A stretch of DNA of 27,782 nucleotides from a virus (lineage: Duplodnaviria > Caudoviricetes). The notes beneath the pieces were generated by a model that was not told where the DNA came from, ran no database searches, and saw nothing but the letters and a program-made list of their open reading frames with translations. This document shows, piece by piece, positions 969-21,987 of the stretch (the first letter of the stretch is position 1; every line of letters starts with the position of its first letter). Made by a program: the position numbers and the translations under genes. The DNA lies in IMG/VR virus record IMGVR_UViG_3300032239_001297, positions 1 through 27,782 of that record. One strand, written 5' to 3'.

Positions 969-1550
969 TTAAGGATTAGTCACTTTCATTAAAACACCAT
1001 TGGTGAAATAAAGAGTGTTGGTGCGAGAGTTGTTAAATGTAAACTGCAAATTTGTAGTTGTGCCACCAACAATATTAGTGGCTTGTAAACTTGTCACACT
1101 TGAACCATTTCCTACAAAACGTGTGGTTGTAAAGACGCCGTTAGTGGTAAGTGTCGCCGCGTCACCTCCGTGTCCATCACCAAAGCCAATACCTGTTGTA
1201 GAACTAAATGAAATATAATGATTTACATTTACATCGTCTAGATTCCATATATCACTGCTAGGCCCATAGTTCGTAAACTGCAAAGTGGCACCGGCTCCAA
1301 CAATGGTAAGTTCTCCGGCAAAGGTAGGATTGGTCAATACGCCAGAAACACTGGCTAATAGCGCATTTGATGTTGCACTAATCTGATTTGTGACAACATT
1401 AAAATTTGTATTGATCTTCTGAAAGGCCGTGCGAAGTGGATCACCAGTCTTATCGTTCGGCGTGGTGCCAACGTTGATGGATGAAATTTGCGCTGTGGCA
1501 AAAATGCAACTTAAAAGCAGTGTCAAGAAACCGGACGTGATTTTTTTCAT
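969..1550 (-). CDS. Signal-peptide-bearing short fibre-like protein with T4 gp9/gp10-type N-terminal motif
   Basis: MKKITSGFLTLLLSCIFATA|Q is followed by INVGTTPNDKTGDPLRTAFQKINTNF and later the fibre-shaft motif FVGNGSSVT. The start is at 1550 or 1556; the late box at 1560-1567 favours 1550. Confidence 0.75.
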   Translation of the reverse strand: MKKITSGFLTLLLSCIFATAQISSINVGTTPNDKTGDPLRTAFQKINTNFNVVTNQISATSNALLASVSGVLTNPTFAGELTIVGAGATLQFTNYGPSSDIWNLDDVNVNHYISFSSTTGIGFGDGHGGDAATLTTNGVFTTTRFVGNGSSVTSLQATNIVGGTTTNLQFTFNNSRTNTLYFTNGVLMKVTNP

Positions 1551-1559
1551 ATTCATGGT

Positions 1560-1567
1560 TATTTATA
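1560..1567 (-). promoter_or_regulatory. T4-type late promoter TATAAATA
   Basis: Perfect consensus (tatttata on +). It overlaps the gp15 stop codon and lies directly upstream of the inserted gene. Confidence 0.8.
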
Positions 1568-4126: not shown

Positions 4127-4134
4127 TATTTATA
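4127..4134 (-). promoter_or_regulatory. T4-type late promoter TATAAATA
   Basis: Perfect consensus 6 nt upstream of the gp13 ATG. Confidence 0.85.
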
Positions 4135-4621
4135 TGTCTTTGGACTCTTTGAATGTTGGAATCATGAGCGGAGAGATTCGCAGATCTCGTGGAGAGGCAT
4201 AGTCCTGATAAGCCAGACGTGTCAGTGGCTGTTTCTTTTTATCCACACAAAGGCGTAGGCCTCGCAATACCCACATCGAGCAGAAGCAGCGATTGCCACG
4301 AATGGGCGGCCAGTTGAGAGCATATCGAAACAGATCGCGAATTGAATACGACGGTGGTTTGGCCAACTGCTCTTCAAACCAAGCCTCGAGCTTTTTAGAT
4401 TCCGCGGTGGTCAGGCCCTCAAGCTCATAGATCTCAGCATGCTTCTGTTCGCCAGGTTTCCAAACACGTTCGCGAACATTGGGATAAAAGTTCTCAATGA
4501 TTCGGCCATTCTCACGAATGAATGCGGCATGTGTGCCAGTGCCATGTGTAAGAAAGCGAATGGCCTTGCCCATGATGTCATGATCATTGATCCAGATTGC
4601 AATTCTGACTTTGTGTTTCAT
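4130..4621 (-). CDS. Permuted papain-like (NlpC/P60, YiiX/YaeF-like) amidase
   Basis: His precedes Cys: IRFLTHGTGTHAAF...YSIRDLF...RCFCSMWV...SPRDL. The start is placed at 4621 because the upstream ATG at 4648 lies inside a terminator hairpin. Confidence 0.7.
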   Translation of the reverse strand: MKHKVRIAIWINDHDIMGKAIRFLTHGTGTHAAFIRENGRIIENFYPNVRERVWKPGEQKHAEIYELEGLTTAESKKLEAWFEEQLAKPPSYSIRDLFRYALNWPPIRGNRCFCSMWVLRGLRLCVDKKKQPLTRLAYQDYASPRDLRISPLMIPTFKESKDI

Positions 4622-4626
4622 GAGAG

Positions 4627-4634
4627 TATTTATC
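4627..4634 (-). promoter_or_regulatory. Late promoter variant GATAAATA
   Basis: 7/8 match, directly after the terminator U-run and 5 nt before ATG 4621. Confidence 0.6.
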
Positions 4635-4666
4635 AAAAGGGCCTCCACTCTTTCGAATGGAGGCCC
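4635..4666 (-). terminator. Rho-independent terminator
   Basis: The minus strand reads GGGCCTCCA-TTC-GAAA-GAG-TGGAGGCCC-TTTT. This is a 9-bp perfect stem extendable to 12 bp, with a GNRA loop and a short U tract, and it closes the accessory cassette. Confidence 0.8.
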
Positions 4667-4691
4667 GAGAGTCGATCGATTGCAAGTCTAT

Positions 4692-4886
4692 TTAAGCTTG
4701 CAGCGGATTGAAGTCAATTTCACCAACGCCTTCTTGAAAGGTCAGAGTAGGCTCATATTCCTTTCCATCAACGGTTGTCCAGATTTCCGGAGAAACGTTC
4801 TGTCCCACTTCGGCGTTTGTGCGCTTGGTGTATTTGCGATCATCCACAAACACCGACTGCCCGATTAAGAAGTCTGTTGATTTCAT
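4692..4886 (-). CDS. Small hypothetical protein (64 aa)
   Basis: The ORF MKSTDFLIGQSV... fills the gap between the barrel gene (5 nt spacing) and the terminator. Confidence 0.6.
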   Translation of the reverse strand: MKSTDFLIGQSVFVDDRKYTKRTNAEVGQNVSPEIWTTVDGKEYEPTLTFQEGVGEIDFNPLQA

Positions 4887-4891
4887 GTGTC

Positions 4892-5473
4892 TTAGAAGCC
4901 CTTGGACCAACCGGCAAAGATATGATATCGTTTGCCAGAATATTCGCCAGCGTTATTCCATTGACCCCAACATGCGCCAAGATTGAACTTGCCGCCCGAT
5001 AGATGGCCAATCTGAACGTAGGCACCAATGTCTTCAATCGTTGAGCAATTGCCACCTGCACCACTCAGAGGGGTGCCCAGACCGGCCAATGCGAACGGAG
5101 TGACAACAACATTGGTCACGAAGTCAGGCAACGCCGGAATGTAATGCTTGGCCTTTTCACCCGCATTGATCGGAAGCTTCAATGTAGCATTTCCAGATAC
5201 AAGTGAGAATTGACCAAGCCAATCGATGCCCAGGCCAGCGCCCAGATAATCATTCACGTTGTAGATGGCCAATACACCGCCACCAATTTTGGTTTTCAAA
5301 TTGGGAGCATAGGTCGCATATGGCTCAAAAGCGTAATTGGTAGCCGAGAGAAGGCCAGATGATTTGACCGCCGAAACGACGGTGTTGACGGGTTTAGCGT
5401 CCTGCGCAAACGAAGCCGTGATCAGGCCTAGTGTGGCGAACGCGATTATGAGATACTGTTTTAACTGTTTCAT
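4892..5473 (-). CDS. Predicted outer-membrane beta-barrel protein (about 8 strands) with signal peptide
   Basis: An AAGGAAAAAC RBS precedes MKQLKQYLIIAFATLGLITASFA|Q. There are eight amphipathic Gly/aromatic strand-like segments, and the C-terminus YHIFAGWSKGF resembles a BAM beta-signal. Confidence 0.7.
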   Translation of the reverse strand: MKQLKQYLIIAFATLGLITASFAQDAKPVNTVVSAVKSSGLLSATNYAFEPYATYAPNLKTKIGGGVLAIYNVNDYLGAGLGIDWLGQFSLVSGNATLKLPINAGEKAKHYIPALPDFVTNVVVTPFALAGLGTPLSGAGGNCSTIEDIGAYVQIGHLSGGKFNLGACWGQWNNAGEYSGKRYHIFAGWSKGF

Positions 5474-5512
5474 GTTTTTCCTTTTTGTTCTATGGTTATC
5501 GACCGACATTAT

Positions 5513-5520
5513 TATCTATA
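5513..5520 (-). promoter_or_regulatory. Late promoter variant TATAGATA
   Basis: 7/8 match in the intergenic space upstream of the barrel gene. Confidence 0.45.
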
Positions 5521-5527
5521 TGGCTCA

Positions 5528-5668
5528 CTACTTAGAGCCACTAAGACTTCCAAAAATCATTAACCTAAAGGCATGTATGGTTTCAAAGGCTCCCAGATCG
5601 ATAGCCGTGCTCTGTGGAATCATTACACTAATTGCATCCTGATTGTTGATATCGCGAACGCCTTTCAT
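5528..5668 (-). CDS. Possible 46-aa ORF (MKGVRDINNQDAISV...GSLSGSK)
   Basis: Fills an otherwise empty gap in the operon direction; no recognisable motif. Confidence 0.3.
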   Translation of the reverse strand: MKGVRDINNQDAISVMIPQSTAIDLGAFETIHAFRLMIFGSLSGSK

Positions 5669-5684
5669 GCCTCCCATGACATCA

Positions 5685-5975
5685 TCATTTGGTTTGGATG
5701 ACGATAACGGATTCGCCGGAATTGGTGTTCCAGATGACTTGCGTGGAGGTGATATTTGTGAGCGCGGGCGGGTTGGTTATTCCCGCTGCTGCCGTCACAC
5801 CGGTCAGGTCGTTGGTGTTGATGCTGTAAATCATCGTGCCGTCCGGAAGCTGTGCGACAGGGCAGCAATCATTACCCACTGGTAGTGCATTGGTGGTAGT
5901 GTAGGTCACATCGGCTTTCAGGGCGTGGATGAGTAGAGCCACAAGAATGGCGAGGATGGCGATATATGTTTTCAT
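5685..5975 (-). CDS. Small secreted Thr/Asn-rich protein
   Basis: MKTYIAILAILVALLIHALKA|D signal peptide; starts 2 nt after the LamG gene stop. Confidence 0.7.
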   Translation of the reverse strand: MKTYIAILAILVALLIHALKADVTYTTTNALPVGNDCCPVAQLPDGTMIYSINTNDLTGVTAAAGITNPPALTNITSTQVIWNTNSGESVIVIQTK

Positions 5976-5977
5976 AG

Positions 5978-6802
5978 TTATGGAATTTTCCCAGCAGGCC
6001 CAAGGTTGTAAATGGCGTTAATTTCGTTTGAGGAAAGAGCGCGATTGTAGATTGCAAGGTCATCAATCAGACCATCCGGCGGTATTTTGTAGGCGGTCGG
6101 CACATAGTTACCTATGATGATGCCGTGCGTAGCAGAACCATCCTGAATTAGATTAGTATTATGGTTCATATAACCGTCCTGCACACCATCAAGATAAATT
6201 TTGGTTCGCTGTGTTGTGAGGTTTTGGTCGTAAGTGAACGCGACATGATGCCACACATTCGTTGTGACAGCCGTGTTAGCTCGCTGATTTAGAGCAGTCG
6301 CCGTTTGCCAACCAGAAGCATTTTGCAGATTGACGGAGAGTTTGTTATTTCCCTCACCATCGCCAAATGTCCAATCAATGGACGAGGCTGCATTAACACC
6401 GCGAGCAGCCACTACCCAACCTGACTGACTTTTACCCGCAAGCGTATAAGAACGAAGAAAAATCCACGCTTCAACCGTCATATTTGAGGAAGGCGCAGGA
6501 CAGTTGGATGCACTACCAGTGGCATTTGTGAAGTTAATTGAACTCGCAGCGTTTGTGAAGTTTAGTGCCGTGCCAACACGCCCCGCCCCGTAAGCAATCG
6601 TTCCTGTTGAAGTATTAGCGTTAGTGGCTGAGAGCCAAGAAATGTCGCTGACGATATTTGACTCACCGCGCACCCAAAGCACACACCCGCTCGGCAAGGT
6701 TCGAGACACCACGCGGTTGAACGCGGGGTCATTGAGCGTAAATGCCTGCGCCAACAGAAGCATTGGCAACAAGACAATTAAGATAGTTGGTAAGAATCTC
6801 AT
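5978..6802 (-). CDS. Secreted LamG / concanavalin A-like lectin domain protein
   Basis: The true start at 6802 forms an ATGA overlap with the upstream stop: MRFLPTILIVLLPMLLLA|Q. LamG motifs are MTVEAWI, NVWHHVAFTYD, KIYLDG and GLIDDLAIYNRALSSNEINAIY. Confidence 0.9.
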   Translation of the reverse strand: MRFLPTILIVLLPMLLLAQAFTLNDPAFNRVVSRTLPSGCVLWVRGESNIVSDISWLSATNANTSTGTIAYGAGRVGTALNFTNAASSINFTNATGSASNCPAPSSNMTVEAWIFLRSYTLAGKSQSGWVVAARGVNAASSIDWTFGDGEGNNKLSVNLQNASGWQTATALNQRANTAVTTNVWHHVAFTYDQNLTTQRTKIYLDGVQDGYMNHNTNLIQDGSATHGIIIGNYVPTAYKIPPDGLIDDLAIYNRALSSNEINAIYNLGPAGKIP

Positions 6803-9800
6803 TGCTGAACCACCGTCGAAAAGTTTGTGATGTTGTTCCCACCAAGGAATGAGAATATACCCACCTTTGCCGCAGGAATCGCTAACGAGTTGGTCGTGGA
6901 CGCGCCAATCGCTCGACAAGGCGCGGACACATAATTCGTGATAGGTGTGGATGCAGAGTTTGATAATACCAATGTTGTCCACCGCATTTCGCCAGAAACC
7001 AATCCACTCACATTGGTAATGGACACGTTGGTCGAGGTCACAAAAAGCTGATAAGAGTTGTTCAAGCTAATAGCATTACTGCCGCCCACCCACACCACTG
7101 TTCCGCTGGTGATATTGGTTGATGGAACGGACGCGGGAATGTCATTCGTTCGCATCAGTCGGTTTGTGGTGTTCACCCCATAGTTGCGGTTGACCACATT
7201 GACATTCGTCCCATCCGTCCAGAGGGCCGATGCGCCATCAACCGCAACGATGGGCGCGACATTGTTGCTGCGGATTTCATGCGCCAGCGCGAAGAAGTTG
7301 AAATTTGAATCCACTCCCGATGGAACACCCGCCGCGTGGCTCACATAGTTGCCCGAGTTGTAATTCCAAAACTCCATCAGGTTCGTGGCGGGCGCGGTGT
7401 AGCCTTGAACGATGAGCGCGGTGACATTGTTGGATTGCTGCGCAACCTGAACGCCGTGAAGACGATTGAACAAAATCTGTGGGGAGTAGGTGTCCACGCC
7501 GATATTGTTGGCAAAGGTCAGCGTGTTCGCATCAACGCCCTGTGCCGACTCCAATGTAATCGCGGTTGTCTTTGTGTTAGCTTTGTTACGCCAAACCACC
7601 ATCCCGCCAGACACATTGAGCATACCATCTGTGCTGTTGTTTGTTTTGAGGTTGATGTCGCCATAGACATTCATCGTGACACGGGGGTTGCCGGTTAATT
7701 CAGGGTCAAAAGTCATTTGCAAACCGCCCGCTTGATAGTCCTTATTGTAGAACTGGAGGGCGTCCAAATCGAAATTAGCGTTCGCGTTGAAGTTTGAATA
7801 AATAGAACTTGGAATCTGGTTGGTGCTACGAGAGAAATTTATTCCGAAGGGGCGGAAGTTATAGTTTGAATACGGCGTGGTGTAGCTCATATACCACTCC
7901 GACTGAATGTAGTTGGCATAGTTCGCCCAGTTATCCTCATAACTTAATCCAAACGCGGGCTGATTGGTGTTAATCTGTGCTCCAGACCCGCTGAGGTTGT
8001 AGCCAATAGTCGTTTGATGGTCGGGGTGCGGGTCGCTAGTCACACTGTTTTGCGCGTTGCTGAATTGCAGGATAGAGAACGATTCGCGCATAGTGCCTTG
8101 CCCGTTCGCGCCCGCCGAGTAGATGAGTGAATTGCTGCCACCTGACGGGCTTACTGTCAGATTGGTAAAGATGGGGTAGTAGCCGCCACCCACCAATGTT
8201 GTCGCCGTTGAAGCATTGCCTGTGGTCGAGTTTGTAAGCGTGCCACTCACATAAGCCGCATTCACATTGGTAAGCGGACCACCATCAAGCGAATACTTGC
8301 GGCTGCCGCCGGACTCGGTCAAGAACCCCGCGCTGCCGCTGTTCGTGGCGATGATGCCATTGACCAGATACGTCCCGTTGCTGACGATTGCGGTCGGCGC
8401 GATGTTGGTCGCCAAACTGCCGTCTCTAGCGGTGCTTCCTGTCAGGGCTACGCTCACGCCACCGTCGGCGCGTATCACGGCAATTTCGTGGTCGAAGGCG
8501 CGGGTGAAATTGTTCGTCGGTGTGCCGACCACCACCGAGTTGTCTAATGTTATGACGATGTTCGTCCTTGCGGATGCGTTGATGTTTCCGAATCCCGTGT
8601 TGACTGTGAGCGACACATTGGTCGCACCGTAGAAGTTCCCGCCAGCAACCGAGCCGGAATCGGCGAAAACATGAGCGTTCGTAGATTCAGAGAAAAGCCC
8701 GCCGCTGTGCGCTCCGTCGTCGCTGCCAGCGGAGCATTGCTTCGCGTTAGAGAACTGCCCACCGCTGAATGAGCCGTTGTCGCTGCTGACATAGCTGTTC
8801 TTCGTGCTGTAAAGATTTCCGCCGCTGTGCGAGCCGCTCGCGCTGTATATGTAGCTGTTGGTGGCAGCTGGAAGATATCCGCCGCTGTGCGAGCCGCTCG
8901 AGCTTTGGATGTAGCTGTTGATGGCGGACGATAGATTCCCGCCGCTGAATGAACCAGCGACGCTAGAGACAAAGCTGTTGGATGACGCCGCGAAGCTCCC
9001 GCCGCTGAATGAGCCGTAGCCAGCGACGTAACCATTACCCGCCTCAGCCTCTTCCGCAGCAAATACTGCCGCTCGCCAATTCCCGACTCCTGTTCCAGTG
9101 AAGATGCCTCCGCCTTCGGTGTAGCTGTTGGTCAAGCCGTCGCTGTTGCCTGATAAATACCCTGCCGTCAATGTGCCAGTCAAAGTTGCGTTGCCGTTCG
9201 TGCCATCAAGATTCACTGTGGTCGTGCCGTTGTTCACAAATCTCAAGCTCTCTGGCAAAAGAGTGGCGGTGTAATACCCACTACCGCCGCCAGTCTCGCC
9301 GTCGAACAACCGGATGCGACCTTGACTGTTGAGATTATCGGCGATGCTGTAGGCTGCGTAGCCACCACCGCTGTAACTACGCCAATCCGTGCGCGTGCCG
9401 TAAAAGCCTGCCGTGCCGGTAAAGCTGTTGTTGTTCGTCTGCACCGCTTCCTGAGCCTGCGCGCGCGTCAAACCTGCTGCAGCGATGGCGGCGGTAAGGG
9501 CGGAGTTCGTGGCGAGTAGTCGGGCTGACACTCCATTACTCACCACCGTGTCGGCTGCAATGTAAGCCGTCTGGACAAGTCCTGTTTGCACTTGGTCATA
9601 GGAATAAGCGGCGGCGACCGCCCCATTGCTGATAGCCGTGCCTTGCGCCGTAGTCACAAAAGCCGTCGCGTTGCTCGCCGAGATATTGCCGAACGCCCCG
9701 TAAGGCGAGTTGGTCGCGAGCGTGGCGGTGGATGCATTGCCCGATGTGCTATTAGTCAGCGTGCCTTGAACTGGACCAGTATGAAGGCCAGAGGTATTAT

Positions 9801-11922
9801 TGGTTAATGTGCCTTGAACTGGACCCGTATGAAGGCCAGAAGTGTTATTGGTTAACGTTCCTACGATATTAGTGGCCGTGACATTTGTTAGAGCTGTGCC
9901 ATCGCCAGTAAAGACACCAGAAAAATTGCCAGCATAATTAGCCGATACTACAAGCGGTGTCGTAAAGCTCAGAGCGCTCGGATAGTTTGTTCCACCTGCA
10001 ATTACGAGAGTTGGCGTTCCATAGATCGTCAACGCATCGCATTTCAATCGACGTATCAGATAAAATCCTGTGGTATTCGTGGCCAAATACAGCTGAGCTG
10101 GCTGAGTCCAGCTATAGAGATTGGTCGTTGAGTTATTGTTCAAAACTGCCGGAGATGCCGTAGCCAATTGAATTAGATTGGTCAAATCGTACGAAGCATA
10201 GACTTCTGGATGAATCTGTATTGCTGCTGAGTTCTGTCCTTGATTTCCAGAAAAGTTTAGATACAAACCATTGACAAAAGGACCACTGACTGAAAGATAT
10301 CGATTCGTCGTGATAAGTGTATCGAAATACTGATTCACATTAGTTGAGACAAAAGTAAAAGTCTTACTATAATTCGTTGGTATTGAGACAGAAAAAACAT
10401 ATGACGTCGTTGAACCTCCGGCTCCAGAATAGTTAGTAATGGCTGAAGTATTCGTTGGTTGTAAAGTGGTGTAAAGAAATACGCCATTGTTCAAAATACT
10501 ATTGACATATGCGGATGTCACAAGTTCATTAGCTCCCGGATTCAGCTGAGTGCCGGAGACATCGTAAACGTGATTAGATATAAAAATACTGGCTCCGGAA
10601 CTGACCGTAACCGTATTCGTGAATAGCACGGTTCCATTGAATGTGGTCGAGTTGGTGACCGTCAGACTGTTTAATGTTGGAGAACTATAGTTGGTCAGAA
10701 TGTTACCACCTGCAGCCGCATTGGTCGCTGTAGTAGAAGTCGTAGCCGTAGTTGCATTGCCGGTGATTGAATTTGTCAGTGTGCCACTGACAAAACTAGA
10801 TAGTGTAGCCGTGGTTGCATTACCCGTAGTCGAATTGGTTAATGTGCCTTGAACTGGACCAGTATGAAGACCAGAAGTGTTATTAGTCAGCGTACCAGTC
10901 ACGCCTACTGCATTACTCGATGCGGCCAATGGAGTGTAAGGAAGCTGTGAATAGGCAATTGAACCACCATTGGTTGCGGGCGAAAAGCCTAATGTTGGTT
11001 GCTTACCGGCCAGATCTGAAACCAATCCTGTCACTTGAGATTCTGGAATTGCTGCGCCATTAGTTGCTGGAACGAATCCATATCGAGCCGCCGGAATTGT
11101 TCCGCTAATCAGATTTGTTGCAATGAGATTTGTCAATGCCGAGCCATCTAGTGAATACTTCCGCCTGCCACCGGTCTCAGTTAAAAACCCAGCGCTGCCA
11201 GAGTTCGTGGCAATGACGCCGTTGACCAGATATGTCCCATTACTGATGATTGCGCTCGCCGGGATGTTGGTTATTCCGCTACCGTCGCCGTTAAAATAAC
11301 TATCCAATGCGGTGATTTTTCCATTTGAAACCTCAATCTTCCCATCAGTCGCACTGTTGAAAATAGTGAACGCACCATTGGTAAAAGTTAAAGTTCCATC
11401 TACCAAAGTAATAGTGCTGCCGTTCACGGCCAGATTGCTAGATAGAGAAAGCGATTGAGTGAATACGTTTGCGTTAGTCCGCACCGCGTCTATTGCATCC
11501 GCGCGGGTAAAACTACTTGAGCCTGCCGATACCGTAAAAGTCTTGGTCATTCCACTAACAGAAGGTATTACTGTGGCATTTGATCCGGCAACAACGTTGT
11601 AATTCGTGATTGCACTGCTTATCTGAGTGTTAACGTAATTTGTTGTCGCCGCACCTACTGCATTAGCATAATTAGTGGTATTCTGTCCGATTTGATTGGC
11701 ATAGTTAGTTGCCGCGGCACCGGTCGAGGTCGCACTTACCGTGATATTTGAAGTCACTTCGGCGGTAGAGTAAACACTCAAACCACTGCGGGCGGTGGCA
11801 GGATTGGTCGTGGTCGTCCAAGAATTGGCAACCACGGGATTTGTTCCATATGATTGGCCAATTGACGTAAAGCACGTCAGAATGCAAAATATCAATGCCA
11901 ATAGCGTATAGATCTTTCTCAT
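6799..11922 (-). CDS. Large Thr/Asn/Gly/Ser-rich fibre/adhesin-like protein with signal peptide (1707 aa)
   Basis: N-terminus MRKIYTLLALIFCILTCFTSIG|Q. Recurring fibre-shaft motifs include FNGDGSGITN, FTGDGTALTN, TGNATTAT, and IPESQVTGLVSDLAGKQPTL. It has internal repeats and sits in the T4 gp9-wac slot. Confidence 0.85.
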   Translation of the reverse strand: MRKIYTLLALIFCILTCFTSIGQSYGTNPVVANSWTTTTNPATARSGLSVYSTAEVTSNITVSATSTGAAATNYANQIGQNTTNYANAVGAATTNYVNTQISSAITNYNVVAGSNATVIPSVSGMTKTFTVSAGSSSFTRADAIDAVRTNANVFTQSLSLSSNLAVNGSTITLVDGTLTFTNGAFTIFNSATDGKIEVSNGKITALDSYFNGDGSGITNIPASAIISNGTYLVNGVIATNSGSAGFLTETGGRRKYSLDGSALTNLIATNLISGTIPAARYGFVPATNGAAIPESQVTGLVSDLAGKQPTLGFSPATNGGSIAYSQLPYTPLAASSNAVGVTGTLTNNTSGLHTGPVQGTLTNSTTGNATTATLSSFVSGTLTNSITGNATTATTSTTATNAAAGGNILTNYSSPTLNSLTVTNSTTFNGTVLFTNTVTVSSGASIFISNHVYDVSGTQLNPGANELVTSAYVNSILNNGVFLYTTLQPTNTSAITNYSGAGGSTTSYVFSVSIPTNYSKTFTFVSTNVNQYFDTLITTNRYLSVSGPFVNGLYLNFSGNQGQNSAAIQIHPEVYASYDLTNLIQLATASPAVLNNNSTTNLYSWTQPAQLYLATNTTGFYLIRRLKCDALTIYGTPTLVIAGGTNYPSALSFTTPLVVSANYAGNFSGVFTGDGTALTNVTATNIVGTLTNNTSGLHTGPVQGTLTNNTSGLHTGPVQGTLTNSTSGNASTATLATNSPYGAFGNISASNATAFVTTAQGTAISNGAVAAAYSYDQVQTGLVQTAYIAADTVVSNGVSARLLATNSALTAAIAAAGLTRAQAQEAVQTNNNSFTGTAGFYGTRTDWRSYSGGGYAAYSIADNLNSQGRIRLFDGETGGGSGYYTATLLPESLRFVNNGTTTVNLDGTNGNATLTGTLTAGYLSGNSDGLTNSYTEGGGIFTGTGVGNWRAAVFAAEEAEAGNGYVAGYGSFSGGSFAASSNSFVSSVAGSFSGGNLSSAINSYIQSSSGSHSGGYLPAATNSYIYSASGSHSGGNLYSTKNSYVSSDNGSFSGGQFSNAKQCSAGSDDGAHSGGLFSESTNAHVFADSGSVAGGNFYGATNVSLTVNTGFGNINASARTNIVITLDNSVVVGTPTNNFTRAFDHEIAVIRADGGVSVALTGSTARDGSLATNIAPTAIVSNGTYLVNGIIATNSGSAGFLTESGGSRKYSLDGGPLTNVNAAYVSGTLTNSTTGNASTATTLVGGGYYPIFTNLTVSPSGGSNSLIYSAGANGQGTMRESFSILQFSNAQNSVTSDPHPDHQTTIGYNLSGSGAQINTNQPAFGLSYEDNWANYANYIQSEWYMSYTTPYSNYNFRPFGINFSRSTNQIPSSIYSNFNANANFDLDALQFYNKDYQAGGLQMTFDPELTGNPRVTMNVYGDINLKTNNSTDGMLNVSGGMVVWRNKANTKTTAITLESAQGVDANTLTFANNIGVDTYSPQILFNRLHGVQVAQQSNNVTALIVQGYTAPATNLMEFWNYNSGNYVSHAAGVPSGVDSNFNFFALAHEIRSNNVAPIVAVDGASALWTDGTNVNVVNRNYGVNTTNRLMRTNDIPASVPSTNITSGTVVWVGGSNAISLNNSYQLFVTSTNVSITNVSGLVSGEMRWTTLVLSNSASTPITNYVSAPCRAIGASTTNSLAIPAAKVGIFSFLGGNNITNFSTVVQQ
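8282..8409 (-). repeat. Diverged intragenic duplication, copy 2 (TNIAPTAIVSNGTYLVNGIIATNSGSAGFLTESGGSRKYSLDG)
   Basis: Matches 11144-11271 at an in-frame offset of 2862 nt; the differences are mostly synonymous. Confidence 0.9.
8596..9015 (-). repeat. Seven coding 60-bp tandem repeats (20 aa, GS[F/H]SGGx[F/L]xxxxNSY[V/I]xxxx)
   Basis: The gccgctg(tgc/aat)gagccg-like core recurs at 8641, 8701, 8761, 8821, 8881, 8941 and 9001. Confidence 0.9.
9761..9861 (-). repeat. Tandem 48-bp repeat x2 (GTLTNNTSGLHTGPVQ)
   Basis: gtgccttgaactggacc(a/c)gtatgaag occurs at 9761 and 9809, with a third copy at 10844. Confidence 0.9.
10836..10895 (-). repeat. Third copy of the 48-bp GTLTNNTSGLHTGPVQ repeat
   Basis: Near-identical to 9801-9860; offsets of 1035 and 1083 nt are both in frame. 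Confidence 0.9.
11144..11271 (-). repeat. Diverged intragenic duplication, copy 1 (TNIPASAIISNGTYLVNGVIATNSGSAGFLTETGGRRKYSLDG)
   Basis: Homologous to 8282-8409. Confidence 0.9.
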
Positions 11923-11929
11923 GATAACT

Positions 11930-11937
11930 TATTTATG
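11930..11937 (-). promoter_or_regulatory. Late promoter variant CATAAATA
   Basis: 7/8 match, 7 nt upstream of the 1707-aa gene ATG; opens the accessory cassette. Confidence 0.7.
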
Positions 11938-11945
11938 GTGCCGAA

Positions 11946-12449
11946 TTAAAGCTGCACGAACGGTTGCCATCCAGTAGCAGCAATTCCAGTCATCTTGAAG
12001 TAGAGTGTGCCACTAGTGGTATCAACATAGGAGTAACCTGGAGAAGCCATGACTATTCCTTCCGGAGAACCAGATCCAGAAAGGCGATATGGCAGAGGAG
12101 TTGGAGGAATGATCGTTGTTGATGTGGCTGCCGGAGTAAATTCAATCTGTCCTTCACGCAATCGTGTTACTCCGCCGGTGTTGTCATACATTTCAATGTC
12201 GTAGACATATCGACCGGCTATGGCGTTACGAGTCACGGCCGCATCCAGAAAGAGTGAAATGACTCCTTTGGTGGCATCTACCACGCGAATGACAAAATCC
12301 GTACCATTCACGGAAGCATAGCTTTTACGAAACTGACCACGAAAAAGCTTTCCGGTCACATTCAAAGGCATGCCATTATCGTCGAGCAAATTCAATGTGT
12401 AATTGAATGTGCTACCCTGATCGGCAATTAGATTGAGAACAAGAGCCAT
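11946..12449 (-). CDS. Virion structural beta-sandwich adaptor protein with a tailspike-type C-terminal motif
   Basis: The N-domain NLIADQGSTF...GRYVYDIEM...RLREGQIEFTP is common in T4-like fibre regions. A Pro/Thr linker leads to the C-terminal GSGSPEGIVMASPGYSYVDTTSGTLYFKMTG...TGW. Confidence 0.75.
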   Translation of the reverse strand: MALVLNLIADQGSTFNYTLNLLDDNGMPLNVTGKLFRGQFRKSYASVNGTDFVIRVVDATKGVISLFLDAAVTRNAIAGRYVYDIEMYDNTGGVTRLREGQIEFTPAATSTTIIPPTPLPYRLSGSGSPEGIVMASPGYSYVDTTSGTLYFKMTGIAATGWQPFVQL

Positions 12450-12454
12450 ATGAG

Positions 12455-13057
12455 TTATGCGTAATATCCAGTCACGGCTATGACAGAGCCATACAAATCA
12501 GCATCGCCATAACGATAGATTCGAATCGTACCATCCGGAGTCGAAAGATTGGCATTTCTGGCTATGATGCCACCTGCATTTTCTAACGACATTTTGATGA
12601 TCGTTGAACTTGAATTTTGCACATAGGTGGCCTGACCATTCCAATTATCCGTGTCATCCCGGCCCAAATAGTAGAGTTCAACCGCCGCCGGTGTCACACC
12701 TTGTAGTGTCGTGGTCAGATTGAGAAAGCCAGAATCGATTGGAGCAAAGTAGCCAGCCGTCCAATTGTATACGTTTGACGCCAAAATGAAATTTCCCAGG
12801 CCTGTTTGTCCGCTAAAGCCAGTGGCCGCAGCATTTAAGGCTCCGCGTAGAACGCCAAATGTGGTCGAAGCGTCGTAACCCGCAGCGTTGCCGATCCAGA
12901 TGATCTTTGGTTGAGCGAGCCATGTCCACTGTTTGATGCCACCGCCATTACCGCCATTAGCGATTGCATTATACAGATTGTTGATCTTCTGACGTTGAAT
13001 TTCAAACGTATCAGATTGTAAGACTGGAGGAGCCGGAGATGCAATTGTGAATGCCAT
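12455..13057 (-). CDS. Short baseplate-associated fibre/structural protein
   Basis: The N-terminal SDTFEIQRQKINNL motif is typical of T4-like fibre attachment helices. A Gly linker precedes the C-terminal domain, and the gene follows gp8. Confidence 0.65.
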   Translation of the reverse strand: MAFTIASPAPPVLQSDTFEIQRQKINNLYNAIANGGNGGGIKQWTWLAQPKIIWIGNAAGYDASTTFGVLRGALNAAATGFSGQTGLGNFILASNVYNWTAGYFAPIDSGFLNLTTTLQGVTPAAVELYYLGRDDTDNWNGQATYVQNSSSTIIKMSLENAGGIIARNANLSTPDGTIRIYRYGDADLYGSVIAVTGYYA

Positions 13058-19901: not shown

Positions 19902-19909
19902 TATTTATG
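19902..19909 (-). promoter_or_regulatory. Late promoter variant CATAAATA
   Basis: Overlaps the gp5 stop, upstream of gp25. Confidence 0.6.
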
Positions 19910-20603
19910 GCGTTTTGATATCATTGATATTGACACGAACACCCATGAGATTGATGAAATTGCCACAGATGTTGATGTCACCGGCATTTGTGATCTCAAA
20001 AAATGCTCCGGTCTTATGCATCAATGAGAGGCGTTCTTTTCCAGGAGTATCATCATATTCAATGACATGCCCAGAACGCGTCTTCATGACTTGATTGTTC
20101 GGATATGTTGGAGCGATGTAATTCAGACTCAGAGTCTGCTTAAAAGGCGCCTTGGCCGCAGCAGTTCCGGCGGTCACTTCGGCCGGAATCTCGGATCCAG
20201 CTTTTCCCGGATAAGTTCCACTTGGATCCGAGAAGCCCTTGGTCTTGTCAGGCAGATCCACTACCTTTGAAGCCACCGTGCCAATAATGATCGGATCCTG
20301 AGCCGAAGGTCCATCGCGAAAGAATCCAATGACCCAGGTTCCGGCAACCATACCGGTAGCAGACTGACCTATGCCGCCCAGTGTTGCATCGATCGTTGAG
20401 GGAGAGGTGACTGGCAGCATGCATAGCGCCCACGGCAGCCCGGACGTAGGTAGGAGCCCTCGATCGTGCGTATGATAGCCTACACAACGAACACGAACAC
20501 GACCGAGCCGCAGAGGATCCTGTGTGTCTTCAATCACTCCGTGAAACCAGTAGAACCCTCCACCGTAGTCTGCAAAGTCGTCTTTGTGATGTGTGGCTAA
20601 CAT
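19905..20603 (-). CDS. gp5: Baseplate central spike, short, without lysozyme domain
   Basis: OB-fold FYWFHGVIEDTQDPLRLGRVRVRCVGYH...GTWVIGFFRDG..AQDPIIIG, then YPNNQVMKTRSGHVIEYDDTPGKERL. The start at 20603 is 1 nt after the upstream stop. Confidence 0.93.
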   Translation of the reverse strand: MLATHHKDDFADYGGGFYWFHGVIEDTQDPLRLGRVRVRCVGYHTHDRGLLPTSGLPWALCMLPVTSPSTIDATLGGIGQSATGMVAGTWVIGFFRDGPSAQDPIIIGTVASKVVDLPDKTKGFSDPSGTYPGKAGSEIPAEVTAGTAAAKAPFKQTLSLNYIAPTYPNNQVMKTRSGHVIEYDDTPGKERLSLMHKTGAFFEITNAGDINICGNFINLMGVRVNINDIKTP

Positions 20604-20604
20604 A

Positions 20605-21987
20605 TTATGATTTATTGACGTCAAAGGTAAAGGAATCTCGCTTCACACGCATGCGACAATGATATTCCTCATCAAACTGATGAATGACCGCCGTGACCAA
20701 GTATTTACCCGAAACCGTGCGATCAAAGAGATCATCAGAATTTCCCTTCAATGTTCGTGGATCAAAGGCTTTTAGATCGATGGCCTTGGGAATCTCCAGA
20801 GCGATCTTTCGACCCGGACGCATGTTAAAGTCACCGGCCACTAGCACCTCGTGAGTGATCGTATCCAGTGTCTCGATGATCGAATTGTATGTGCCCAGAC
20901 GATTCACCATCATATCATGATAGCTCTGTGCGGATCCATCCGTCGAATAGGCTAGCGAATTCACGGGCAGATATTCCGTGAAAGCGTCATAGGTTTGACT
21001 TAGATCCTTAATGTCCGCATCAGAACTGTAGGGTACGCCAAAGGTATTCGACAGAACCTTGTGTGTGTTCAATGTTGACTTGGGATCAATTGATCCATAG
21101 CTAAAAGTCTGATTTCGAAGTGTCTTGGTCGATAGATCCAGAAAGGTGGATCTGGATGCATATGCACCATTGCTTATCGTGGGAAGGACTTTGGACAGTT
21201 TGAAGTCCGACGCCACGTCCAGCACACGTTCAAGTTGCTCGATAAAATATGCGGCGGTTCCTGGAGTCTCGGCAAAAAGCTTGGCATCGCGATAGGTTCG
21301 ATACACTGGATTCTTCTTCTCATCGATCAACGTGGTCAATGATTCCAGACGAATGCCATCGCGCATTGATTCGGAAAGAAAGAATGGTCTGGATGACTCA
21401 TCATAGGCTCGACGCAGAAGCCAATAGCACGAATCCATTGGATGCATTAGTGGAAGAACTCCGTTGAATCGGCCAATCGTTGTCTCAATATTGGCAATTC
21501 GAGTCGAATCAACAAGCAGATCTTGTTCCAGTGTTCGACGTATTTCCGAAGATATCGTATCCTTCACGGCACGGGAAATGCGTTTGAATGCCGAGATATA
21601 TGCTTGTTTGGAGACCGCCACGATGCCATAAGCCTGAGTATTCTGCTGATCGCCGCGACCAAAGATTGGATATTCGGTCACATAAAATGTCAGATCGACG
21701 TCGGTCCAGTCTGGCGATGTGAAGTCATGACGTCCCATCTTCACGCGAATTGTTTCTTGTCCAATCAACTGATACTCTTCAATGAAATTGGCCGTGTCTT
21801 TGATGTTCAGACGCAAGATCATCGAGGCCGTATAGAGGCTCTCGGTGATAGAAAAGTCCGTGACGATATTCTGTATGTCGGCCGTCTGACCTTTGTGATT
21901 GGTCAGAATAATGCCATCCAGAGCATAGGCTAACGGTGTTAGCGCTTTGTCCGTATTCGGCTTGATGTTGCCACGAATATTAGGCAT
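20605..21987 (-). CDS. Baseplate hub protein (gp27/gpD-like)
   Basis: 460 aa between gp53 and gp5, with N-terminal FSITESLY and C-terminal VAGDFNMRPG...SGKYLVTAVIHQF typical of the gp27/gpD fold. Confidence 0.75.
   Translation of the reverse strand: MPNIRGNIKPNTDKALTPLAYALDGIILTNHKGQTADIQNIVTDFSITESLYTASMILRLNIKDTANFIEEYQLIGQETIRVKMGRHDFTSPDWTDVDLTFYVTEYPIFGRGDQQNTQAYGIVAVSKQAYISAFKRISRAVKDTISSEIRRTLEQDLLVDSTRIANIETTIGRFNGVLPLMHPMDSCYWLLRRAYDESSRPFFLSESMRDGIRLESLTTLIDEKKNPVYRTYRDAKLFAETPGTAAYFIEQLERVLDVASDFKLSKVLPTISNGAYASRSTFLDLSTKTLRNQTFSYGSIDPKSTLNTHKVLSNTFGVPYSSDADIKDLSQTYDAFTEYLPVNSLAYSTDGSAQSYHDMMVNRLGTYNSIIETLDTITHEVLVAGDFNMRPGRKIALEIPKAIDLKAFDPRTLKGNSDDLFDRTVSGKYLVTAVIHQFDEEYHCRMRVKRDSFTFDVNKS

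What the first reader, a model, noticed from the sequence alone, without database searches (positions are those of the whole stretch)
4635..11937. Cassette of Sec-exported fibre, lectin and outer-membrane proteins in the gp9-gp12/wac slot of a T4-like phage
Seen: between gp8 (plus two adaptors) and gp13 is a unit opened by a late box (11930-11937) and closed by a terminator (4635-4666). Four of its genes begin with type I signal peptides: the 1707-aa fibre-like protein, the translationally coupled LamG protein, a 96-aa protein and a beta-barrel. No recognisable gp9-gp12 or fibritin gene is present here. Established: tailed-phage virions assemble in the cytoplasm and their fibres normally lack signal peptides. 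Inference: this may be an undescribed envelope-targeted late module. One option is that receptor-binding fibres are exported, matured in the periplasm and attached to virions at lysis. Another is that the infected cell displays phage-encoded adhesins or decoys.
Basis: partly seen in the sequence, partly recalled or inferred. Interest (0 to 1): 0.88.

Follow-up and report, generated by a model that had tools for sequence, protein, structure and literature searches.

The report
T4-like phage fibres with export signals
An uncultured T4-like phage and its close relatives put predicted secretion signals, and a Thr-Asn tag shared with the exported proteins of the likely host group (Verrucomicrobiota), on their fibre-like proteins, so these parts are likely finished outside the cytoplasm and would join the virus particle only when the cell bursts.

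Summary
The late box, the terminator and four signal-like leaders are present (hydropathy rule; no SignalP), and the leaders are kept in orthologues.

The block is two modules: an exported fibre set (fibre, LamG, 96-aa) and a likely lysis module (8-stranded barrel, permuted papain-like enzyme). In a circular 118-kb relative, every long fibre-like protein has a leader; in 154 other T4-like loci none does.

New here: Thr-Asn is enriched 2.5-fold in the leader-bearing proteins, halved in cytoplasmic ones, and is the top dipeptide in sampled Verrucomicrobiota secreted proteins. This points to an unknown envelope modification tag, perhaps glycosylation.

Best reading (0.55): fibres are exported, matured in the periplasm and attached at lysis. 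Main rival: exported decoys. Nothing here shows virion incorporation. The scan found signal-peptide fibres before on other DNA (138 notes); my searches found no paper describing them.

The parts
11930..11937 (-). T4-type late promoter box (CATAAATA), 8 nt before the fibre ATG
6799..11922 (-). 1707-aa mosaic fibre-like protein: predicted 22-aa type I leader (11857-11922; Gln at +1), conserved ~30-aa N-terminal motif, internal repeats, 63 TN (25 expected)
5978..6802 (-). 274-aa LamG/ConA lectin with predicted leader, coupled to the fibre by ATGA; likely tip adhesin
5685..5975 (-). 96-aa protein with predicted leader; small companion of the fibre/LamG unit, role unknown (helper or cap inferred)
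5513..5520 (-). near-consensus late box (TATAGATA) ahead of the barrel gene
4892..5473 (-). 193-aa 8-stranded OmpA/Lom-type outer-membrane barrel with predicted leader; likely lysis-module member
4692..4886 (-).
   Evidence: no relative among session loci
4635..4666 (-). intrinsic terminator (12-bp stem, GAAA loop, T run)
4627..4634 (-). late box (GATAAATA) opening the papain-like gene
4130..4621 (-). 163-aa leaderless permuted papain-like (YaeF/YiiX-type) enzyme; likely lysis-module member
   Evidence: PHROG 1128; homologous to L089 protein with PF05708 and to L091 protein
11946..12449 (-). leaderless LtfC/p132-like fibre-anchoring adaptor with a ~55-aa C-terminal extension; candidate cytoplasmic docking stub
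   Evidence: PHROG 1084, 3304; PF23926 in relative
12455..13057 (-). leaderless 200-aa baseplate-side protein with a conserved short N-terminal motif
   Evidence: PHROG 6005
969..1556 (-).
1560..1567 (-). late box (TATAAATA), 4 nt before the 195-aa gene

Best explanation
The phage's fibre, lectin and anchor-motif proteins carry predicted Sec signals and a Thr-Asn tag, so they are likely exported, cleaved and modified in the host periplasm, and would be attached to the cytoplasm-built particle at lysis through leaderless adaptors. SHOWN: late boxes; leader-like N-termini on five late genes and on their orthologues; leaderless adaptors beside them; the TN bias shared with secreted proteins of the likely host group; mosaic exchange of the fibre body and tip block. 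INFERRED: (1) late translation into Sec and cleavage by signal peptidase I, mostly exposing Gln (pyroglutamate likely); (2) trimer folding in the periplasm, with LamG capping the fibre tip; (3) modification at T-N-x-(V/L/F/I) by a host membrane glycosyltransferase; (4) docking, once the inner membrane fails, of the freed N-terminal anchors on the adaptor and on the neck or baseplate; (5) the barrel and the papain-like enzyme act as a separate lysis module, probably on the outer membrane.
For: Leaders are conserved while bodies diverge: the three fibre relatives found (this phage's own fragment aside, two distinct) keep leader plus anchor-like motif. The gp9/10 motif follows a leader in 5 of 45 viral proteins and sits at residues 11-19 without a leader in 40 of 45, and in cultured Rhizobium, Agrobacterium and Bradyrhizobium phages. 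In T4 the gp9 N-terminal domain binds gp7 (PMC3004832, passages). In G001 (118 kb, direct terminal repeats) 5 of 138 ORFs are leader-flagged, all in these two slots; the only leaderless long S/T/N/G-rich proteins are gp6, gp7 and gp8. Controls: 3 of 1324 ORFs flagged in 154 other T4-like loci, 0 of 82 full-length fibre-like ORFs; in 22 of 22 control loci with the adaptor, no neighbour is flagged. Leader plus motif occurs in 1 of 151 host-group genomes, in a prophage fibre position. TN: 85 against 33.5 expected in the five leader proteins, 16 against 31 in 18 cytoplasmic ones; G001 94/29 against 85/112; host-group secreted 413/202, the top dipeptide, with the same +3 hydrophobic preference. TN is not enriched in leaderless fibres (660/653) or in leader-bearing fibres of two other phages (22/20). 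An independent variant has 12 of 12 listed fibre-tip changes at third codon positions. T4 fibres attach to fiberless particles as a late step (PMC3004832, passages).
Against: No virion proteomics, isolate or expression data. Leaders were called by my own rule, not SignalP. The short leaderless proteins (167-200 aa; a 196-aa stub in L004) could be the real receptor binders, and gp7 has a long variable C-terminus. CheckV rates G001 65% complete despite its terminal repeats. L005 lacks the 195-aa gene, and a 121-aa short form exists, so it is dispensable or variable. The TN bias could be inherited from captured host modules or reflect a fold; the host 'cytoplasmic' set is also mildly enriched (151/117, partly four misfiled secreted proteins). 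STT3 was not found in 5 host-group genomes and NxS/T is not enriched, so no modifying enzyme is identified. The E. coli control is small (11 proteins). The host is inferred, and the record used is titled Bifidobacteriaceae.
Confidence: 0.55

Rival explanations
1. The proteins are exported but never join the virion. They mask receptors or coat the infected cell or its debris (decoy, superinfection block, or protection of progeny from binding lysed-cell remains), and the short leaderless proteins do the adsorbing.
For: All export evidence fits equally well. Bacteria export fibre-like trimers with signal peptides (Bdellovibrio MAT, PMC10769870 passages). Porphyromonas prophages carry Q-rule exported proteins read as envelope modifiers (PMC10367356 passages). 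An outer-membrane barrel is encoded next door.
Against: A decoy has no use for the particle-anchor motif kept directly behind the cut site. The genes fill the slot that holds leaderless fibres in sister lineages. The circular relative has no other long fibre. No membrane anchor is evident in the mature proteins, and leader plus motif was found in only 1 of 151 host-group genomes, in a prophage.
Confidence: 0.25
2. The hydrophobic N-termini are not cleaved. They tether fibres to the inner membrane as assembly or release anchors, and the fibres are picked up there by the particle.
For: Cleavage was not tested with a trained predictor; the LamG cut site has two possible positions.
Against: Small residues at -1 and Gln at +1 in 4 of 5 window proteins. 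Gln is kept in at least 90% of 111 barrel sequences. [AGS]Q occurs in 30 of 77 host-group secreted proteins against 9 of 77 in a shifted control. A basic n-region implies the body faces the periplasm (established positive-inside rule, recalled).
Confidence: 0.08
3. The block is a recent capture of host adhesin genes whose leaders are relics, or the true starts lie downstream of the hydrophobic stretch.
For: TN bias and leader style match host secreted proteins. One database record of this fibre starts downstream (P0234).
Against: Late boxes lie 4-8 nt before the leader ATGs. Leaders persist across a clade with 78-86% gp13 identity. The fibre has no BLAST match to the sampled host proteins, and its C-terminal part resembles only viral clusters (a lead). 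A variant keeps the LamG leader despite changes in it.
Confidence: 0.05

Closest known systems
T4 gp9/gp10 and long tail fibres (PMC3004832, passages read)
   Same: N-terminal gp9/10 motif (PF07880, sub-threshold), T4 late boxes, gp8-gp13 slot, fibres added late to finished particles
   Different: T4 parts are cytoplasmic and leaderless. Here no full gp9-gp12, Wac or gp34-37 match was found, and the motif follows a leader.
Leaderless motif proteins of Rhizobium phage P10VF (P10VF_056) and Agrobacterium phage Atu_ph04 (Pootjesviridae)
   Same: Motif up to 87% identical over 24 residues; short gene in the neck cluster
   Different: No leader and no TN bias; the gene lies between gp14 and gp15 rather than after gp15.
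T5 p132/LtfC collar with pb1 fibre (PMC10038345, passages read)
   Same: Ig-like adaptor directly upstream of the fibre gene (PHROG 3304, PF23926)
   Different: pb1 is described with its N-terminus intertwined in the collar; here the fibre behind the adaptor has a leader, and the adaptor has an extra C-terminal domain or a separate leaderless stub.
Bdellovibrio MAT fibres (PMC10769870, passages read)
   Same: Mosaic phage-like fibres with signal peptides, showing that such proteins can be exported
   Different: Cellular adhesins with their own ~130-aa N-terminal domain; not phage late genes, and no S74 domain was found here.
Q-rule exported proteins of Porphyromonas gingivalis prophages (PMC10367356, passages and two supplement rows; PMC5837995, passages)
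   Same: Phage genes with host-style Sec/SPI leaders exposing Gln
   Different: Five genes of unknown function (the one row seen is 144 aa); not described as fibres. The Q-rule paper does not mention Verrucomicrobia.
Lambda Lom / OmpA-OmpX-Ail 8-stranded barrels (Lom recalled)
   Same: Phage-encoded small outer-membrane barrel; fold matched to OmpA, NspA and Ail
   Different: 12-17% identity; an N-terminal helix precedes the barrel; it sits beside holin-like and papain-like or lipase genes, not in a moron position.

Membership tests
Sec/SPase I substrate | Basic n-region, hydrophobic h-region, small residue at -1 | tested here: met
   Own rule; 5 of 25 window ORFs, next best hydropathy 1.98; conserved in orthologues
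Sec/SPase I substrate | SignalP score; actual export and cleavage | not testable with these tools
   No SignalP, no proteomics
T4 gp9/gp10 family (195-aa protein) | PF07880 N-terminal motif | tested here: inconclusive
   E 0.0018, 18.8 bits against cut-off 25; PHROG 677 E 4.7e-5
T4 gp9/gp10 family (195-aa protein) | Leaderless; full-length gp9/gp10 body | tested here: not met
   Leader present; no PDB sequence match at E 10
Phage tail fibre / receptor-binding protein (1707-aa protein) | Position behind a fibre adaptor; conserved N-terminus, mosaic body | tested here: met
Phage tail fibre / receptor-binding protein (1707-aa protein) | Profile or fold match to a known fibre | tested here: inconclusive
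   No Pfam, PHROG or credible PDB hit; feature look-alikes are viral clusters, PF26209 on 41% of one cluster; tip model pLDDT 30
Phage tail fibre / receptor-binding protein (1707-aa protein) | Present in the virion and binds the host | not testable with these tools
   No isolate
LamG/ConA lectin | PF13385 above cut-off | tested here: met
   69 bits against 27.6
OmpA/OmpX/Lom 8-stranded barrel | Eight strands, leader, terminal aromatic residue | tested here: met
Spanin / classical lysis cassette | Lipoprotein plus inner-membrane spanin, and a peptidoglycan hydrolase | tested here: not met
   The barrel has no lipobox by my rule; no Pfam peptidoglycan hydrolase among 137 of 138 G001 ORFs; lipoproteins fill the slot in L002/L137/L256 instead
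PglB/STT3 N-glycosylation | N-x-S/T enrichment and an STT3 enzyme | tested here: not met
   55 against 45 in the fibre, 356/348 in host secreted proteins; STT3 in 0 of 5 genomes
Envelope glycosylation at T-N-x-hydrophobic (new, proposed) | Motif confined to exported proteins of host and phage | tested here: met
Envelope glycosylation at T-N-x-hydrophobic (new, proposed) | Glycan on the motif; enzyme identified | not testable with these tools
   Only candidates: 5-24 PF13231 matches per genome in 5 of 5 genomes, a family also found in 9 of 14 controls
Bdellovibrio MAT | Cellular gene; S74 or the MAT N-terminal domain | tested here: not met
   No S74 hit; phage late context

The most novel reading that the evidence does not exclude
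A T4-like myovirus splits morphogenesis across the inner membrane: heads, tails and adaptor stubs are built in the cytoplasm, while all host-recognition fibres are exported, glycosylated at an undescribed Verrucomicrobiota T-N-x-hydrophobic sequon, and snapped on during a lysis step run by an outer-membrane barrel and a lipid-active enzyme in place of spanins and a classical endolysin.
Probability: 0.3. Interest if true: 0.93.

Novelty: categorically new. Interest (0 to 1): 0.8.

Why it matters
Tailed phages are taken to build every virion part in the cytoplasm (established knowledge). A periplasmic branch would change how host-range proteins fold, get modified and attach. It would also mean that leader-bearing phage genes, usually filed as morons, can be virion parts. 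The T4-like case is useful because its assembly pathway is well mapped and the leaderless counterparts exist in cultured phages. The TN tag gives a sequence-level handle on a probable protein-modification system of an abundant, poorly cultured soil and freshwater bacterial group, and it can be tested on a cultured strain without the phage.

Tried and rejected
Complex prediction of adaptor (3 copies) with fibre residues 24-105 (3 copies): no answer, score 0.00 against a mark of 0.32.

AF2 of the fibre tip from a 2-row alignment: pLDDT 30, not used. PDB sequence searches for the fibre, the 195-aa protein and the adaptor gave nothing credible.

The wide profile search of leader plus motif never ran because the machine was busy, so the family's breadth rests. 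The VIA fold search also did not run.

Classical N-x-S/T glycosylation was rejected. L025, a leaderless motif protein with TN 14/6, was checked; the excess comes from a repeated unit.

Sequencing runs: no RNA holder listed. X1 may be the source sample and is not counted as support.

No homologue of the relatives' 84-aa membrane protein was found in the window. 'One envelope cassette' was rejected.

Literature: searches (fibre/signal peptide/periplasm terms; Pedosphaera/Limisphaera phages; glycosylation) gave listings with nothing on exported tailed-phage fibres or a TN motif. Only listings were seen for these, and subscription journals are mostly not covered.
Full report
1. WHAT IS THERE. The 27.8-kb record is the tail and neck region of a T4-like phage: gp26, gp54, gp4, gp48, gp53, gp27-like, gp5, gp25, gp6, gp7, gp8, gp13, gp14, gp15 and terminase, by PHROG and Pfam (gp7 by position and a weak PF23786 hit). 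Between gp8 and gp13 lie two leaderless genes (200 and 167 aa), then 1707, 274, 96, 193, 64 and 163 aa. ATAAATA occurs 14 times against 2.7 expected, and boxes sit 4-16 nt before seven late ATGs, 8 nt before the fibre's. The terminator is real (z -6.3). Four of the five have Gln just after the predicted cut. SignalP was not available.

2. THE LEADERS ARE A CLADE TRAIT. The closest gp13 relatives (78-86% identity) form one branch with the window (8 rows, 100/100, among the 45 best-scoring gp13 sequences I gave the tree). L002/L137, L004/G001, L083 and L256 carry leader-bearing genes in the same slots; L001 and L005 hold only lipoprotein-like or membrane genes in the part covered, and L005 lacks the post-gp15 gene. 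The fibre relatives (L083/P0235, P0236) keep the leader and a ~30-residue motif behind it, while the bodies differ; L083's holds an SGNH-like stretch (my reading). In G001 (117,947 bp, direct terminal repeats; CheckV 65%), 5 of 138 ORFs are leader-flagged, all in these two slots; one further 224-aa ORF is a frameshifted fibre piece, left out of the counts. The only long leaderless S/T/N/G-rich proteins are gp6, gp7 and gp8. In 154 other T4-like loci, 3 of 1324 ORFs are flagged (two lipoproteins and one 130-aa protein), and none of 82 full-length fibre-like ORFs. In 22 of 22 control loci with the 167-aa adaptor's orthologue, no neighbouring gene is flagged, and many neighbours are long fibre-like proteins. 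This slot is therefore the usual fibre slot, filled here with leader-bearing versions.

3. A PARTICLE ANCHOR BEHIND A LEADER. The 195-aa protein has the gp9/gp10-type motif right after the cut site (PHROG 677 E 4.7e-5; PF07880 below cut-off). Among the 45 distinct motif proteins in loci L226-L301 (from the 80 loci kept of 135 hits), 40 are leaderless with the motif at residues 11-19 and 5 have a leader. Three of the five are T4-like relatives; two (L226, L229) belong to other phages, perhaps of Bacteroidota (my guess). Cultured phages have the leaderless form. In T4 the gp9 N-terminal domain binds gp7, and fibres attach late to fiberless particles (PMC3004832, passages). Leader plus motif was found in 1 of 151 host-group genomes, in a prophage, on a 594-aa gene behind the tape-measure and tip genes (labels are my reading). 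The 167-aa protein is LtfC/p132-like; in T5, p132 anchors the fibre (PMC10038345, passages). Its C-terminal extension is shared with L083, which has the same fibre N-terminus, while L004 has a short adaptor plus a 196-aa leaderless stub. This suggests split fibres with a cytoplasmic stub and an exported arm; the wording 'split fibre' comes from note e1-6078195.

4. TWO MODULES. In an independent run (X2), the fibre tip, LamG and 96-aa genes are about 96% identical and the contig diverges at 5684, the end of the 96-aa gene. Joints inside the fibre fall at its repeats, and 12 of 12 listed tip changes are third-position (40 of 69 differences were shown). The barrel (209 relatives; AF2 pLDDT 87.5, eight strands, OmpA/NspA-like) has a different company. 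It sits next to small holin-like genes and a permuted papain-like enzyme (window, L004, L089, L091) or a class-3 lipase (L090, E 3e-32), in T4-like, podovirus-like and Mu-like phages (types and holin labels are my reading). In 301 host-group genomes it occurs in 3, at 4 loci, all in Mu-like prophage stretches. L002/L137 and L256 have lipoproteins in its place. No Pfam peptidoglycan hydrolase was found in 137 of 138 G001 ORFs (thresholds 1e-3 and 1e-5). A lysis role is an inference from gene context.

5. HOST AND THE TN TAG. One barrel relative is named Limisphaerales. Genome G005, which carries a barrel prophage, is titled Bifidobacteriaceae, but 2 of 10 of its proteins share 90% clusters with Verrucomicrobiota entries and 1 with an Acidoferrum label. 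I take the host as Verrucomicrobiota by inference. Thr-Asn occurs 85 times against 33.5 expected in the five leader proteins (51 against 20 in the fibre without repeat copies) and 16 against 31 in 18 cytoplasmic proteins; the reverse pair NT is not enriched. G001 gives 94/29 against 85/112. In about 0.6 Mb sampled from G005 and five relatives, 77 predicted secreted proteins give 413/202, and 164 predicted cytoplasmic ones 151/117 (four of them look secreted); 11 E. coli secreted proteins give 9/17. TN is the top dipeptide in both host and phage sets, and both prefer V/L/F and avoid K/R/E two places after the Asn. Leaderless fibres (660/653; 99/120) and the leader proteins of L226/L229 (22/20) lack it. 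So the tag follows host group plus export, not fibre fold. N-x-S/T is flat and STT3 was not found in 5 genomes; PMT_2-type membrane glycosyltransferases are many but not specific. Glycosylation is my best guess, not a result. G001's own glycosyltransferase cluster is another candidate source.

6. MECHANISM AND ODDS. Export and cleavage: about 0.9. Virion attachment given export: about 0.6, giving 0.55. Decoy or display: 0.25. Uncleaved tether: 0.08. Relic: 0.05. The strongest argument for the virion is the anchor motif kept behind the cut together with the lack of another long fibre in a circular genome. The strongest gap is that nothing here shows incorporation.

7. NOVELTY. Searches (listings only) showed no description of exported tailed-phage fibres or of a TN motif. 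Nearest in print are the Bdellovibrio MAT fibres (passages) and the Q-rule genes of P. gingivalis prophages (passages and two supplement rows; one file was cut when stored and the other Q-rule rows were not read, so a fibre among them is not excluded). This scan has noted signal-peptide fibres before on other DNA (138 notes; probable Verrucomicrobiota cases); these are unchecked AI notes and not support. It had no note on the TN motif or on the barrel module.

Noticed in passing
G005, G006, G016, G020, G032, G033 (L101-L111, L113-L132): Predicted secreted proteins of this Verrucomicrobiota-like group show a strong T-N-x-(V/L/F) bias and frequent Gln after the predicted cut (30 of 77 against 9 of 77 in a shifted control): a possible unknown modification sequon and a Q-rule outside Bacteroidota.
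   Followed up: partly
window 4130-5473; L089:5578-7641; L090:9866-11699; L091:4346-6062; L223:8313-9860: Recurrent module of 8-stranded barrel, holin-like genes and an interchangeable permuted papain-like enzyme or class-3 lipase at the lysis position of unrelated phage types; no classical endolysin found in G001.
   Followed up: partly
G001 57405-62965 (L095:405-5965): Cluster of UDP-galactopyranose mutase, methyltransferase, GT2, GT10, GT11 and GT2 in the complete relative; target unknown.
   Followed up: no
L089:211-957; L218:16141-16554; L090:19972-20444: Leader-bearing TN-rich genes directly after or near the capsid genes (head-decoration position) in podovirus-like and Mu-like phages of the same host group.
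   Followed up: no
window 8698-9015: Five to six 60-nt repeats (20-aa units, probable beta-solenoid) in a GC-richer (about 57%) insert of the fibre.
   Followed up: partly
window 969-27570, cytoplasmic structural genes: TN is depleted (16 against 31; 1 of 300 shuffles as low; G001 85/112), as if particle proteins avoid the tag.
   Followed up: partly
L004:7380-8154 (also L086, L087): The 992-aa fibre and the following 224-aa ORF match one continuous 1230-aa protein (P0236); a frameshift or split is shared by three contigs.
   Followed up: partly
L165:252-644: A marine T4-like fragment outside the clade has a leader-bearing 130-aa protein just before gp13.
   Followed up: no
L226:5986-12162; L229:6004-6790: Other phages put leaders on the same anchor motif and on three following genes, without the TN bias.
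   Followed up: partly
L091 / G005: The record title says Bifidobacteriaceae, but the 6.8-Mb genome looks Verrucomicrobiota.
   Followed up: partly
window 19905-20624: gp5 is only 239 aa, with an OB domain and no lysozyme domain detected.
   Followed up: no
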